Source: a phage. From it: a DNA stretch of 64,000 nt. Positions 8,730 to 19,151 of this stretch are shown here, piece by piece (position 1 is the first letter of the stretch; every line of letters starts with the position of its first letter). A program made the translations under genes and the position numbers. The stretch is taken from the sequence record PZ452609.1; one strand, 5' to 3'. The notes beneath the pieces were generated by a model that was not told the DNA's origin, made no database searches, and saw nothing but the letters and a program-made list of their open reading frames with translations.

Positions 8730-10082
8730 ATGTGGAATCCAATTGTTAATGTAGATATTACATTGAACACCGCAGGAACTACAAGAGAAGGTTTTGGGCT
8801 ACCACTATTTTTAGCTTCAACAGATAACTTTGAAGAAAGAGTCCGTGGTTACACTTCCTTAACTGAAGTTGCTGAAGATTTCGATGAAAACTCTGCTGCA
8901 TATAAGGCTGCTAAACAACTTTGGAGTCAGACTCCTAAAGTAACTCAGCTTTATATTGGTAGACGTGCTATGCAGTACACTGTATCAATTCCTGATGAGG
9001 TTACTGAGAGCACCGACTATTCTTTAACTGTAGCTGTGAGCGGTGGAGTTTCTCAGCCATTCCAGTACACTTCACAGTCAGAAGATACTGCTGAGAAGGT
9101 GCTACAGCAGCTTAAAACTCAGATTGAAGCAGAGCCTTCTGTAAAAGACCTTGTTACCGTCAATGTAACTGGTGCTGGTGGTTCAGCAACAATGGTAATC
9201 ACCAAAGCGGGTGACAATGACTTCGTGAAGGTTACCACTACAGCACAAACAGTGTCAATTGCAAGTACAACTGCTGACACAGCATCGACTGCTCTGGCAG
9301 CTATTGAGGCTTATTCAACTGACTGGTATTTCATTGCAGCAGAAGATAGAACTCAACAGTTTGTCTTAGCAATGGCTTCTGAGATTCAAGCTCGTAAGAA
9401 GATTTTCTTTACAGCTAACTCTGATGTAACAGCCCTACAAGGTACAGAATTAGCCAGTGCAAATGATGTTCCAGCACAGCTTGCTAAGAGTCAGTACACT
9501 CGTACCGTTTGCTTGTGGCATCACACAGCAGCAGAAGACTATCCAGAAATGGCATACATTGCTTATGGCGCTCCGTATGATGCAGGTTCAATTGCTTGGG
9601 GTAACGTACAGTTAACTGGCGTAGCTGCTTCTCTACAGCCATCTAATCAGAGACCTCTGACAAGTATTCAGAAGTCAGCTTTAGATGCACGTCACTGTAA
9701 CTTTATTGACCTTGATGGTGGTGTTCCAGTGGTTCGTAGAGGGATTACTTCTGGTGGGGAATGGATTGATATCATCCGTGGTGTTGACTGGTTAGAATCA
9801 GACCTGAAAACTTCTCTGAGAGACTTGCTAATTAACCAGAAGGGTGGTAAGATTACTTATGATGATACTGGTATTACCCGTATTCGTCAAGTCATTGAAA
9901 CCTCTCTGCAAAGAGCAGTCAACAGAAACTTCCTGTCATCTTACACAGTTAATGTTCCTAAAGCCTCTCAAGTTGCTTTGGCAGACAAGAAAGCTCGTAT
10001 CCTGAAAGACGTTACCTTCTCAGGTATCTTAGCAGGGGCTATCTTGGATGTTGACTTGAAAGGTACAGTGGCTTACGAATAA
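8730..10082 (+). CDS. tail sheath protein (putative)
   Basis: 450 aa ORF followed by ~150 aa tube-size ORF, then chaperone pair and tape measure: canonical myovirus order. Confidence 0.6.
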   Translation: MWNPIVNVDITLNTAGTTREGFGLPLFLASTDNFEERVRGYTSLTEVAEDFDENSAAYKAAKQLWSQTPKVTQLYIGRRAMQYTVSIPDEVTESTDYSLTVAVSGGVSQPFQYTSQSEDTAEKVLQQLKTQIEAEPSVKDLVTVNVTGAGGSATMVITKAGDNDFVKVTTTAQTVSIASTTADTASTALAAIEAYSTDWYFIAAEDRTQQFVLAMASEIQARKKIFFTANSDVTALQGTELASANDVPAQLAKSQYTRTVCLWHHTAAEDYPEMAYIAYGAPYDAGSIAWGNVQLTGVAASLQPSNQRPLTSIQKSALDARHCNFIDLDGGVPVVRRGITSGGEWIDIIRGVDWLESDLKTSLRDLLINQKGGKITYDDTGITRIRQVIETSLQRAVNRNFLSSYTVNVPKASQVALADKKARILKDVTFSGILAGAILDVDLKGTVAYE

Positions 10083-10097
10083 TAGAGGTAAATTGGA

Positions 10098-10544
10098 ATG
10101 GCTATGTATCAGCAATATTCCCCTAAAGACGTTGTGTGTAGCTGGAATGGTATTGCCATTGAAGGCTTTGCCCCAGACTCATTCTTACGTCTACAGAGAA
10201 CATCACCACTTGTGACACCAGTTGTAGGTGCAGGTGGTCAAGTTGCTCTGACAAGAAATGCAGACAAGACAGGTACTATTGAGATTGAGCTAATGCAGAC
10301 TTCTCTCTCTAACCAGATGCTTTCTGCAATTCAAGCTAAACAAGACAATATGGAACTTGAAGAAGATATCTCTTCTAACTTCGTAATCTACGACCCATCA
10401 GGCTCTGTTCTGGCAACTGGTATTAATGCTTGGTTGCAGGAATTACCACAGATTGAACTTGGTCGTGACCAGAACTCTAAAACTTGGATTTTTGGTTGTG
10501 AGAAGCTAGACTACACTTCTACAATTCCAGCGTCAAGTGTTTAA
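10098..10544 (+). CDS. tail tube protein (putative)
   Basis: 148 aa, follows sheath, followed by strong terminator. Confidence 0.55.
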   Translation: MAMYQQYSPKDVVCSWNGIAIEGFAPDSFLRLQRTSPLVTPVVGAGGQVALTRNADKTGTIEIELMQTSLSNQMLSAIQAKQDNMELEEDISSNFVIYDPSGSVLATGINAWLQELPQIELGRDQNSKTWIFGCEKLDYTSTIPASSV

Positions 10545-10554
10545 TAAATCCTAT

Positions 10555-10588
10555 AAGGGGGAGACTTTAAAAGGTCTTCCCCTTTTTT
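10555..10588 (+). terminator. intrinsic terminator after sheath/tube genes
   Basis: gggggagac-ttta-aaaggtcttcccc stem-loop followed by TTTTTT. Confidence 0.6.
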
Positions 10589-10617
10589 GTTTCTTTTAAA
10601 AGTATTAAGGAATCACA

Positions 10618-11016
10618 ATGAAAACAGAATCTAGAGTAATTAATGGTAAGAAAGTAAATATCGTTCTGCTTGGGGCGAGAGATGGTATTAAGATGTCTAT
10701 GAAGTTGGGTAAAATTGTTGTTCCAACCTTTGCACAGATGCTGTCAAGTCTGACTGATAAAGACAAGAAAGAAGCTCCAATGGTTCCATTTAAAGAACTT
10801 GTTGAAGCTTGTTTTGACAGAATTGAAGAAATTAACCTTGAAGAAATGGCTACATTACTATTTCAAGGGGCAACTGTCGATGACTTCCCACTTAATATTG
10901 ATACGTACTTCCAAGCAAACTACGGTGAGTTTATTGATTACTTAGCATTTGCGCTGGAGGCAAACTTCGGAAGTTTTTTCGAAGCAAGCATTTTCAAAAG
11001 CCTAACTTCTCAGTAA
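10618..11016 (+). CDS. tail assembly chaperone (G-like)
   Basis: 132 aa ORF between tube and tape measure; contains slippery heptamer T_TTT_TTC near its 3' end. Confidence 0.5.
   Translation: MKTESRVINGKKVNIVLLGARDGIKMSMKLGKIVVPTFAQMLSSLTDKDKKEAPMVPFKELVEACFDRIEEINLEEMATLLFQGATVDDFPLNIDTYFQANYGEFIDYLAFALEANFGSFFEASIFKSLTSQ
10974..10980 (+). other. putative programmed -1 ribosomal frameshift site (T TTT TTC)
   Basis: XXXYYYZ heptamer in frame with 10618 ORF; -1 frame runs stop-free into the 11019..11258 ORF. Confidence 0.5.
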
Positions 11017-11018
11017 AC

Positions 11019-11257
11019 ATGGGTAACACTCTACAGACACCACTAACTGATGCTGCTGTAGAGGCAACCTATGAAGAAGCAGACGAGATGAAATTTGTGC
11101 TTGCTATTTATGGTATGGAAGGGTGTAAAGAAACACTTGACCAACTCTTTGCTATGACATTCTCTGATTTATTATCATTGAGACAATTTCTTGAGATTCA
11201 GAGGTCGTATAAAGAGGAAATTGCTTACAACGAACTTAGAAGAGCAGGAAAAATGTA

Positions 11258-11258
<1 letters not shown>
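11019..11258 (+). CDS. tail assembly chaperone frameshift extension (GT-like) or independent small ORF
   Basis: 79 aa ORF in -1 frame relative to upstream chaperone, no intervening stop from slippery site. Confidence 0.45.
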
Positions 11259-16642
<5,384 letters not shown>

Positions 16643-18114: not shown

Positions 18115-18698
18115 ATGTTTGAAAAGATTGATAGTGTTTATTATAAAACACTTGATGAAAGGACTGTAACACAGTTTAAAGATAAATTTATCTATACAAG
18201 TATCTTGAAAGCAATCACTGATGAGCTACAAACACTAGAGGATGTTTGCTGGCAGATGCACACAGAGAGAAATATCAGGACGTCAGTAGGTCAACAACTT
18301 GATAATATTGGCTCACTGATTAAAGTTCCTAGACCTTTAGGTGCTGATGATGAAACATACAGAGCTATGCTTTATATCCAAATCTTCCTAAGACGTTCTG
18401 ATACTACTCCAACATTCTTGCAAAAAGCAATTATGACATTGTATGGTGCAACTTTCTCTCAGATTTTTGAGCATATTACTCCTAAGACTGGTGGTATCGT
18501 TATCCGTATTAATACTAGAAAAAGCGTTCTTGATGCTGCATATACACTGTCAAAGATTTCTGCAACAACCACTGGTTCCGCTGTTATCTTAAGAGATGTT
18601 ACTTTAAATGGGACTGCTTGGACACCTGTAGAGGTTGCTGATTCATCACTTGCTATTGTTGATGATAAAGAGAACTGGTTTGTAACTGATGCTAACAG
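18115..18698 (+). CDS. baseplate/tail fibre-attachment protein, 3' end undetermined (runs into N gap)
   Basis: ORF open from 18115 into the N run; reading frame beyond the gap cannot be trusted. Confidence 0.4.
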
Positions 18699-18798
18699 NN
18701 NNNNNNNNNNNNNNNNNNNNNNNNNNNNNNNNNNNNNNNNNNNNNNNNNNNNNNNNNNNNNNNNNNNNNNNNNNNNNNNNNNNNNNNNNNNNNNNNNN
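18699..18798. other. 100-nt run of N (assembly gap or masked sequence)
   Basis: exactly 100 n characters. Confidence 0.95.
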
Positions 18799-18848
18799 CA
18801 AATTGTCAAAGGCAGAAAAGATAAATCACAACAAGAAGGAAATTCTTA

Positions 18849-19151
18849 ATGGCAGTTCTAAATTGGTCTACAAACGAAGTAGATACTGATGGTAATCAGT
18901 TAAAAGTTTTACCACCACCGGAAGTTCAAGAGACAGGTCTTTTAAAGGGTGAGCCTATGGGTAGACAGTGGTTCAACTATATTATCAACTACCTGCTGAA
19001 TAAAGTAAATGGCACTGTTGGTGAAGTTCGTTCATATGCAACTGAGCAACCAGATTTAGTGGCTAATGGCTGGAATCTCATTAAGTCTGAGACAGGGACT
19101 GCATCAACAAGTACAAGAAACCTTTACACATATGAATATGTAGGAGCTTAA
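18849..19151 (+). CDS. hypothetical tail protein
   Basis: 100 aa ORF between baseplate block and tail fibre. Confidence 0.3.

What the first reader, a model, noticed from the sequence alone, without database searches (positions are those of the whole stretch)
10974..11258. Conserved -1 programmed frameshift joining the two tail assembly chaperone ORFs
The ORF track shows two separate ORFs between the tube and tape measure genes. The first ends just after a canonical slippery heptamer T_TTT_TTC (10974-10980); the -1 frame from that point is open and runs straight into the 11019-11258 ORF. This reproduces the G/GT chaperone frameshift conserved across tailed phages, predicting a fusion protein 10618..10979 plus 10979..11258.
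Basis: partly seen in the sequence, partly recalled or inferred. Interest (0 to 1): 0.45.

Follow-up and report, generated by a model that had tools for sequence, protein, structure and literature searches.

The report
Tail chaperone -1 frameshift, Felix O1-type phage
The two small genes between the tail tube and tape measure genes of this Felix O1-like coliphage are joined by a conserved slippery T_TTT_TTC site that makes a longer tail assembly chaperone, a real but well-known feature already described for this phage family.

Summary
The window is Escherichia typing phage 1 (Felixounavirus). ORF1 (10618-11016, Pfam Phage_TAC_15) and ORF2 (11019-11258) lie between the sheath and tube genes and the tape measure gene. 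ORF2 is in the -1 frame of ORF1. T_TTT_TTC (10974-10980) sits in the ORF1 frame inside the 79-nt stretch where both frames are open.

One such heptamer there is only modestly unlikely by chance (about 0.09). Comparison settles it:
- All 47 distinct sequence contexts from relatives (23-100% protein identity) keep NNT TTT TTY in phase.
- The -1 frame always stays open to the tape measure gene.
- Third-codon-position identity peaks at the site (0.77-0.87 against about 0.35).
- ORF2's ATG has no Shine-Dalgarno sequence and is missing in most relatives.

No downstream RNA structure is present in this lineage. A GGAGG 13 nt upstream is a possible stimulator.

The predicted product is a 213-aa fusion, join(10618..10980,10980..11258). 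The same site is annotated in Citrobacter phage Moogle (2015). A 2025 paper reports the conserved GTTTTT motif across 231 Andersonviridae. This phage's own record lists two separate genes.

Verdict: real, ordinary, already known. No direct experimental proof was found.

The parts
10618..11016 (+). ORF1, the short (G-like, 'TAC-N') tail assembly chaperone, 132 aa, made by standard translation
   Evidence: ORF. Pfam PF21822 Phage_TAC_15, E=1.2e-19; phrog_1613 tail assembly chaperone, E=8e-49. SD-like AAGGA upstream, -6.1 kcal/mol.
10938..11016 (+). Overlap in which both the ORF1 frame and the -1 frame are open (26 codons); any productive -1 shift must occur here
   Evidence: -1 frame open from 10938 after TGA 10935-10937; ORF1 stop TAA at 11014-11016.
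10956..10960 (+). GGAGG, a Shine-Dalgarno-like pentamer 13 nt upstream of the heptamer; candidate upstream stimulator (inferred, not shown)
   Evidence: sequence; the Glu codon here is GAG followed by G in 40 of 47 distinct contexts, against 39% GAG elsewhere in the same genes. Absent in the Hafnia and Erwinia phage relatives. Spacing lies within the 6-17 nt range used by Sharma et al. 2014.
10974..10980 (+). Slippery heptamer T_TTT_TTC (ORF1 codons TTT 10975-10977 and TTC 10978-10980); both tRNA-Phe can re-pair on TTT TTT after a -1 slip
   Evidence: Conserved in phase in 47/47 distinct contexts (39 TTTTTTC, 8 TTTTTTT). Phe-Phe invariant in the protein alignment. Synonymous-site conservation peaks here.
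10980..11258 (+). -1 frame extension (T-like, 'TAC-C' part), 92 codons plus stop, read after the slip; contains the annotated ORF2 (11019-11258)
   Evidence: phrog_4963 tail assembly chaperone, E=2.8e-55. The ATG at 11019 has no SD (+0.7 kcal/mol, about 5th percentile of the window's genes), is ATA in the 99%-identical L024, and is absent in most relatives.
10618..11258 (+). Predicted fusion chaperone, join(10618..10980,10980..11258), 213 aa
   Evidence: Phage CL1 carries the same protein as one continuous ORF because of a T7 run. The homologous Moogle fusion equals deposited YP_009145710.1.
10098..10544 (+). Tail tube gene (context, upstream neighbour)
   Evidence: PF11681; phrog_280. Sheath gene 8730-10082 lies just upstream (phrog_205).
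11258..13486 (+). Tape measure protein gene (context); its ATG overlaps the stop of the -1 extension (ATGTAATG)
   Evidence: PF20155 TMP_3; phrog_4036, E=0.

Best explanation
This is the tail assembly chaperone locus of a Felix O1-like myovirus. It uses a programmed -1 ribosomal frameshift of the lambda G/GT type. Most ribosomes translate ORF1 to its stop and make the 132-aa short chaperone. A minority slip back one base on U_UUU_UUC (10974-10980), with tRNA-Phe in the P site on UUU and in the A site on UUC, both re-pairing on UUU. They resume at CGA (10980) and read 92 further codons to the stop at 11256-11258. The result is a 213-aa fusion whose C-terminal part is the annotated 'ORF2'. By analogy with lambda, the shared N-terminal part coats the tape measure protein, the extra C-terminal domain recruits the tube protein, and neither form ends up in the virion. 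Shown here: the anatomy, the family membership of ORF1, and strong purifying selection on the slip site, its phase and the open -1 frame. Inferred: that the shift is ribosomal, its efficiency, the roles of the two forms, and that the upstream GGAGG rather than a downstream structure helps the shift in this lineage.
For: Position between the tube and tape measure genes. ORF1 matches PF21822 Phage_TAC_15. ORF2 matches phrog_4963 tail assembly chaperone. The heptamer is in phase and the -1 frame is open. The same in-phase TTTTTTC sits at the homologous Phe-Phe in Felixounavirus, Suspvirus, Mooglevirus, Kolesnikvirus, the Hafnia, Yersinia and Pectobacterium phages and in Vequintavirinae (CR8, Av-05), each with a -1 extension of 92-124 codons ending at the tape measure gene. 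In 47 distinct contexts from 80 IMG/VR loci, the first Phe codon is TTT in 47/47 (41% elsewhere in these genes) and the preceding codon ends in T in 47/47 (37% elsewhere), even in relatives with 60-78% GC in the 50 nt downstream of the site. Third-position identity among 16 representatives is 0.77-0.87 at codons 118-124, against about 0.35 background. Blastn of the distant Erwinia phages matches only 10963-11003, at 92.7%. The ORF2 ATG has no SD, is ATA in a 99%-identical relative, and in most relatives the first possible start lies 20-70 codons into the extension. [quoted passage not shown] PMC12846349 reports the conserved GTTTTT motif in the TAC-N genes of 231 Andersonviridae, the family that holds Felixounavirus. 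U_UU.Y is the second most shift-prone tetramer class in E. coli.
Against: There is no experimental detection of the fusion in this or any relative in what I could read. No downstream stimulatory structure is present: the 80 nt after the site fold no better than shuffles (z=+0.8), and the alignment fold gives -3 kcal/mol with no covariation. Efficiency may therefore be low. In this phage an ATG lies 2 nt after the ORF1 stop, so some independent re-initiation of a 79-aa ORF2 product cannot be excluded. The IMG/VR loci were seeded with a peptide pattern that includes Phe-Phe and the sequences are related, so the 47/47 counts are not independent trials. Only codon choice and phase are unbiased.
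Confidence: 0.88

Rival explanations
1. The same fusion is made by transcriptional slippage. RNA polymerase adds one extra U on the T6 tract, so a fraction of mRNAs carry U7 and encode the fusion in one frame.
For: The site is a homopolymer. A 1-nt insertion gives exactly the same protein, as the T7 sequence of phage CL1 shows. Eight of 47 contexts have TTTTTTT, and one of these is followed by a further T, giving T8. A weak hairpin followed by the T run was picked up by the terminator scan at 10954-10970. Sharma et al. note that U7 and A7 are avoided in E. coli genes, possibly because of transcriptional slippage.
Against: The run is only 6 T in 39 of 47 contexts and has not lengthened over wide divergence. 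Efficient bacterial slippage sites known to me have about 9 or more identical bases (own knowledge). The phase is fixed (NNT TTT TTY in 47/47), which matters for tRNA re-pairing but not for the polymerase. Many distant relatives have a hairpin beginning about 7 nt after the heptamer, the classical spacing for a ribosomal stimulator. The terminator-like hit is within chance (2 found, 0.9 +/- 1.0 expected).
Confidence: 0.07
2. There is no recoding. ORF1 and ORF2 are two separate proteins, with ORF2 starting at ATG 11019 by termination-reinitiation coupling (TAA AC ATG). The T-run is conserved only because Phe-Phe is needed in ORF1.
For: This phage's own records and the three further Felixounavirus records I sampled annotate two CDSs. 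The ATG lies 2 nt after the ORF1 stop. The exact 79-aa ORF2 product is deposited in many databases, which reflects annotation only.
Against: Phe-Phe does not require TTT at the first codon or a T before it, yet both hold in 47/47 contexts. The ATG has no SD, is ATA in L024, and is absent in the Erwinia, Hafnia, Pectobacterium and most metagenomic relatives. In those the conserved P-x-T-[DE]-x-A-V motif of the extension lies upstream of any start codon. phiEa21-4 has no callable ORF2 at all, yet keeps 94 open codons in the -1 frame.
Confidence: 0.04

Closest known systems
Citrobacter phage Moogle / Michonne tape measure chaperone with annotated frameshift (Mooglevirus, Ounavirinae; PMC4319497)
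   Same: It is a homologous gene pair (76% protein identity of the fusion). It has the same TTTTTTC at the same Phe-Phe and the same -1 extension ending at the tape measure gene. The deposited joined protein YP_009145710.1 equals the fusion predicted from that heptamer.
   Different: Moogle's record carries the joined CDS. The record of this phage (KP869100 / NC_041979) lists two separate CDSs, and its exact 213-aa fusion is not in the 15-billion-protein collection.
Conserved GTTTTT frameshift motif in TAC-N genes of Vandenendeviridae (Pakpunavirus Adele) and 231 Andersonviridae (PMC12846349, 2025)
   Same: It is the same motif near the 3' end of TAC-N, with the same argument from an always-open -1 frame. 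Felixounavirus belongs to Andersonviridae.
   Different: That work is also purely computational. I did not find there the codon-phase statistics, the missing start codons or the stimulator analysis given here.
Phage lambda G/GT (Levin, Hendrix & Casjens 1993; Xu, Hendrix & Duda 2004, 2013, 2014, as summarised in PMC5009743)
   Same: Two overlapping ORFs lie between the major tail gene and the tape measure gene. [quoted passage not shown] The chaperones are absent from virions.
   Different: Lambda is a siphovirus and its heptamer is G_GGA_AAG (own knowledge). I did not test sequence similarity to lambda gpG. ORF1 here belongs to a different Pfam TAC family (PF21822). The function and ratio here are inferred only.
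Phage P2 E / E+E' (myovirus; -1 shift on TTTTTTG; Christie et al. 2002, from my own knowledge)
   Same: It is a contractile-tail phage with a U6N slip site and the same gene order (sheath, tube, chaperone pair, tape measure).
   Different: The last base differs (G against C). I did not test homology to P2 gpE.
E. coli dnaX -1 frameshift (upstream SD-like stimulator plus downstream hairpin)
   Same: An SD-like GGAGG lies 13 nt upstream of the heptamer, within the 6-17 nt range treated as stimulatory.
   Different: There is no downstream hairpin here. The GGAGG is not conserved in all relatives. In dnaX the shifted product is shorter; here it is longer.

Membership tests
G/GT-type tail assembly chaperone frameshift (Xu, Hendrix & Duda 2004) | Pair of ORFs located between the major tail/tube gene and the tape measure gene | tested here: met
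   Sheath 8730-10082, tube 10098-10544, ORF1 10618-11016, ORF2 11019-11258, tape measure 11258-13486.
G/GT-type tail assembly chaperone frameshift (Xu, Hendrix & Duda 2004) | Second ORF overlaps the 3' end of the first in a shifted frame | tested here: met
   The -1 frame is open from 10938 to 11258, giving a 79-nt overlap with ORF1.
G/GT-type tail assembly chaperone frameshift (Xu, Hendrix & Duda 2004) | Slippery sequence (X_XXY_YYZ) in the overlap, in the phase of the first ORF | tested here: met
   T_TTT_TTC at 10974-10980 is the only such heptamer in the overlap.
G/GT-type tail assembly chaperone frameshift (Xu, Hendrix & Duda 2004) | Slip site and frame arrangement conserved among diverged relatives | tested here: met
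   47/47 distinct contexts keep it, and the -1 extension is always open for 76-124 codons. Synonymous-site conservation peaks at the site.
G/GT-type tail assembly chaperone frameshift (Xu, Hendrix & Duda 2004) | Second ORF lacks its own translation start signals | tested here: inconclusive
   In this phage an ATG exists at 11019 but has no SD (+0.7 kcal/mol). The ATG is lost in L024 and is absent in most relatives. Re-initiation after the adjacent stop cannot be excluded in silico.
G/GT-type tail assembly chaperone frameshift (Xu, Hendrix & Duda 2004) | Fusion protein made at a low fixed ratio and needed for tail assembly | not testable with these tools
   This needs proteomics, reporters and phage genetics. 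I found no such data for Felix O1-like phages.
Pfam PF21822 Phage_TAC_15 | Score above the curated gathering threshold over most of the model | tested here: met
   71.5 bits against a cut-off of 22; residues 9-124 match model positions 1-124 of 127.
dnaX-like stimulated -1 frameshift | SD-like sequence 6-17 nt upstream of the heptamer | tested here: met
   GGAGG at 10956-10960 with a 13-nt spacer. GAG+G is kept in 40/47 contexts against 39% GAG usage elsewhere. Its function is not testable here.
dnaX-like stimulated -1 frameshift | Stable downstream hairpin or pseudoknot 5-9 nt after the heptamer | tested here: not met
   MFE -10.2 kcal/mol over 80 nt, z=+0.8. The first 50 nt give -3.2 kcal/mol, z=+0.7. 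There is no conserved structure or covariation in 12 relatives and no Rfam frameshift element. Distant GC-rich relatives do have such hairpins.
Programmed transcriptional slippage | Long homopolymer run (about 9 or more identical bases in known bacterial cases; own knowledge), independent of codon phase | tested here: not met
   The run is T6 here and T6 in 39 of 47 contexts, the rest being T7-T8. The phase is strictly fixed.

The most novel reading that the evidence does not exclude
Within one chaperone family (PF21822-like), the U6Y slip site is frozen while the stimulator has been swapped between lineages. GC-rich relatives carry a 7-9 bp hairpin starting about 7 nt downstream. The Felix O1 group has no downstream structure and instead relies on the upstream SD-like GGAGG (13-nt spacer). 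A further contribution could come from the unusually conserved 23 nt after the site, CGAAGCAAGCAUUUUCAAAA, which also holds a second U_UUC tetramer at 10992-10995. This would be a natural series for studying how stimulators of -1 frameshifting are exchanged.
Probability: 0.3. Interest if true: 0.35.

Novelty: already known. Interest (0 to 1): 0.15.

Why it matters
The main value is for annotation. The record of this phage and the three further Felixounavirus records I sampled list two separate 'chaperone' genes, and the 213-aa fusion of this phage is absent from protein databases. It should be annotated as join(10618..10980,10980..11258) with ribosomal slippage. Biologically it adds nothing new in kind. 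It is one more well-supported case of the conserved tail chaperone frameshift, and it has already been noted for this family. Felix O1-like phages are used for Salmonella and E. coli typing and biocontrol, so correct structural annotation has some practical use.

Tried and rejected
- **Downstream stimulatory structure.** Single-sequence folds and an alignment fold of 12 relatives found nothing beyond shuffles and no covariation. I rejected it for this lineage.
- **Rfam scan of 10500-11400.** The only hit was a sub-threshold chance match to GibS sRNA over the terminator (26.9 against 115 bits).
- **PDB sequence search with ORF1.** No meaningful hit.
- **Xu et al. 2004.** I could not read it, so I could not check whether Felix O1 was in their original list.
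- **Sharma et al. 2014.** A text search for a measured efficiency of U_UUU_UUC found no explicit value. Only class statements were found.
- **tRNA genes in the window that might affect Phe decoding.** None found.
- **Terminator-like hairpin plus T run at 10954-10979.** I considered it as a pause or slippage element. It is weak (G-U pairs) and within chance expectation.
- **Phage CL1's single fused ORF as natural proof.** It more likely reflects a homopolymer sequencing error.

Full report
**What the window is.** The region 10000-11700 is 100% identical to Escherichia (O157) typing phage 1 (KP869100 / NC_041979, Felixounavirus TP1). It is 96-99% identical to Felix O1, wV8 and about 200 other Felix O1-like myoviruses. 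In the current NCBI taxonomy the genus sits in Ounavirinae, family Andersonviridae.

**The observation.**
- The gene order is sheath (8730-10082), tube (10098-10544), ORF1 (10618-11016, 132 aa), ORF2 (11019-11258, 79 aa) and tape measure protein (11258-13486).
- ORF1 matches Pfam PF21822 Phage_TAC_15 (71.5 bits, cut-off 22) and phrog_1613. ORF2 matches phrog_4963. Both PHROG families are named tail assembly chaperone.
- ORF2 is in the -1 frame of ORF1. That frame is open from 10938 to the stop at 11256-11258.
- The heptamer T_TTT_TTC occupies 10974-10980, with ORF1 codons TTT (10975-10977) and TTC (10978-10980). It is therefore in the X_XXY_YYZ phase inside the 79-nt overlap.
- A -1 slip gives ...ANFGSFF-RSKHFQKPNFSVNMGNT..., a protein of 213 aa.

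**Is it more than chance?** From this sequence alone the case is only modest. In-frame X_XXY_YYZ heptamers occur 64 times in about 19,000 codon positions of the window's long ORFs, after discarding 32 artefacts from a run of N. About 0.09 would be expected in a 26-codon overlap. In-frame TTTTTTC occurs only once in the window.

**Comparative evidence.** This is decisive.
1. In annotated phages of five other Ounavirinae lineages (Suspvirus, Mooglevirus, Kolesnikvirus, the Hafnia, Yersinia and Pectobacterium phages) and in two Vequintavirinae (CR8, Av-05; 25-26% ORF1 identity), the same in-phase TTTTTTC sits at the homologous Phe-Phe. The -1 frame runs 92-124 codons and ends at the tape measure gene.
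2. A scan of IMG/VR with the ORF1 alignment gave 80 loci and 47 distinct sequence contexts.
   - All 47 have NNT TTT TTY (39 TTTTTTC, 8 TTTTTTT) and a -1 extension of 76-116 codons.
   - The scan was seeded with a peptide pattern that includes Phe-Phe, so the presence of Phe-Phe is not informative. The codon choice is informative.
   - The first Phe is TTT in 47/47, against 41% TTT elsewhere in the same genes.
   - The preceding Ser/Cys codon ends in T in 47/47, against 37% elsewhere.
   - This holds even in relatives whose 50 nt downstream of the site are 60-78% GC.
   - The sequences are related, so these are not independent trials, but they span 23-100% protein identity.
3. Among 16 representatives under 95% identical, third-codon-position identity is 0.77-0.87 at codons 118-124 (the slip site is codons 120-121). 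The background is about 0.35.
4. Blastn of the distant Erwinia phages matches only window 10963-11003, at 92.7%.

**ORF2 is not an independent gene.**
- Its ATG has no Shine-Dalgarno sequence. The duplex with the anti-SD is +0.7 kcal/mol, weaker than in about 95% of the window's genes. ORF1 gives -6.1 and the tape measure gene -5.1.
- In a 99%-identical metagenomic relative (L024) the ATG is ATA.
- In the Erwinia, Hafnia and Pectobacterium phages and in most metagenomic relatives, the first ATG/GTG/TTG of the -1 extension lies 20-70 codons inside it. That is downstream of the conserved P-x-T-[DE]-x-A-V motif.
- phiEa21-4 has no annotated ORF2 at all but keeps 94 open codons.
- In this particular phage, the stop of ORF1 and the ATG are 2 nt apart. 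Some re-initiation cannot be ruled out in silico.

**Mechanism.** The best-supported mechanism is tandem -1 slippage of the two tRNA-Phe from UUU-UUC to UUU-UUU.
- U_UU.Y is the second most shift-prone A-site class in E. coli, and motifs with homogeneous X and Z bases are generally more shift-prone (Sharma et al. 2014).
- I found no downstream stimulator. The 80 nt after the site fold at -10.2 kcal/mol (z=+0.8) and the first 50 nt at -3.2 kcal/mol. An alignment fold of 12 relatives gives -3 kcal/mol without covariation. Rfam has no match.
- In contrast, many GC-rich distant relatives have a 7-9 bp hairpin that begins about 7 nt after the heptamer (for example CCGCGAGCG...CGCUCGCGG, z down to -5).
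- Upstream, GGAGG lies at 10956-10960, 13 nt before the heptamer. The Glu codon there is GAG followed by G in 40 of 47 contexts, against 39% GAG elsewhere. This fits a dnaX-like SD stimulator, which Sharma et al. searched for 6-17 nt upstream. It is missing in the Hafnia and Erwinia phage relatives, so it remains an inference.
- The 23 nt after the site are unusually conserved. This may simply reflect double coding.

**Rivals.**
- Transcriptional slippage on T6 would give the same protein. It is disfavoured by the short, non-expanding run (T6 in 39 of 47 contexts), by the strictly fixed codon phase, and by ribosome-type downstream hairpins in distant relatives.
- The two-separate-proteins reading is disfavoured by the codon-level conservation and by the missing start codons.

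**What is already known.**
- The Moogle record carries a joined CDS. Its deposited protein YP_009145710.1 is exactly the fusion I predicted from the homologous TTTTTTC, and Michonne has an equivalent 212-aa entry.
- A 2025 paper on Pakpunavirus Adele reports an invariant GTTTTT motif in TAC-N genes of Vandenendeviridae and of 231 Andersonviridae phages. It cites the Mooglevirus annotations.
- The general phenomenon is the lambda G/GT paradigm.
- By contrast, this phage's own records and the three further Felixounavirus records I sampled list two separate CDSs. Its exact fusion sequence is not in the 15-billion-protein collection.
- I found no experimental demonstration for Felix O1-like phages.

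**Verdict.** The feature is real, ordinary and already described for this family. Its value is to correct the annotation. Interest is low.

Noticed in passing
L008 (Escherichia phage CL1, OK040806) 957-963; homologous to window 10974-10980: CL1 has T7 instead of T6 at the slip site, so its chaperone is annotated as one continuous 213-aa ORF nearly identical (99.1%) to the predicted fusion. In that sequence a -1 slip gives only an 8-codon tail, and the normal short form could not be made. It is probably a homopolymer sequencing or assembly error, but if real it would be a GT-only phage.
   Followed up: partly
window 10555-10594: A strong intrinsic-terminator-like hairpin (13-bp stem, then TTTTGTTTCT) lies between the tube gene and the chaperone gene. 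Some related records list a terminator feature under the matched region. It may lower chaperone and tape measure transcription relative to sheath and tube. The weak Rfam GibS hit is this hairpin.
   Followed up: partly
window 18699-18798: A run of exactly 100 N (masked sequence) lies inside a + strand ORF (18115-18849).
   Followed up: no
L024 (IMGVR_UViG_3300045988_004167), homologous to window 11019-11021: A 99%-identical Felixounavirus contig has ATA instead of the ORF2 start ATG. This is consistent with ORF2 being translated only through the frameshift.
   Followed up: partly
L053, L064, L072-L090, L094 and others (IMG/VR relatives), 7-40 nt after their heptamers: GC-rich distant relatives of the same chaperone family carry a stable 7-9 bp hairpin starting about 7 nt after the U6Y heptamer (z down to -5). 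The Felix O1 group has none. The stimulator appears to be lineage-specific around an invariant slip site.
   Followed up: partly
window 10992-10995: A second, tetramer-type slip motif U_UUC (ORF1 codon TTC preceded by T) lies 12 nt after the heptamer, inside the overlap and in the highly conserved stretch CATTTTCAAAA. A -1 shift there would enter the same extension. I did not analyse it further.
   Followed up: no
L013 (Citrobacter phage BSwM KMM4) 701-970: ORF1 is truncated at 89 aa by a frame change upstream of the slip site, and tblastn needs three pieces. It is probably an indel error in the record.
   Followed up: no
cluster 2: A protein in the 90%-identity cluster that holds this phage's ORF1/ORF2 homologues is deposited under Staphylococcus hyicus (WP_252560994.1). 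An enterobacterial phage sequence in a Staphylococcus assembly probably reflects contamination.
   Followed up: no
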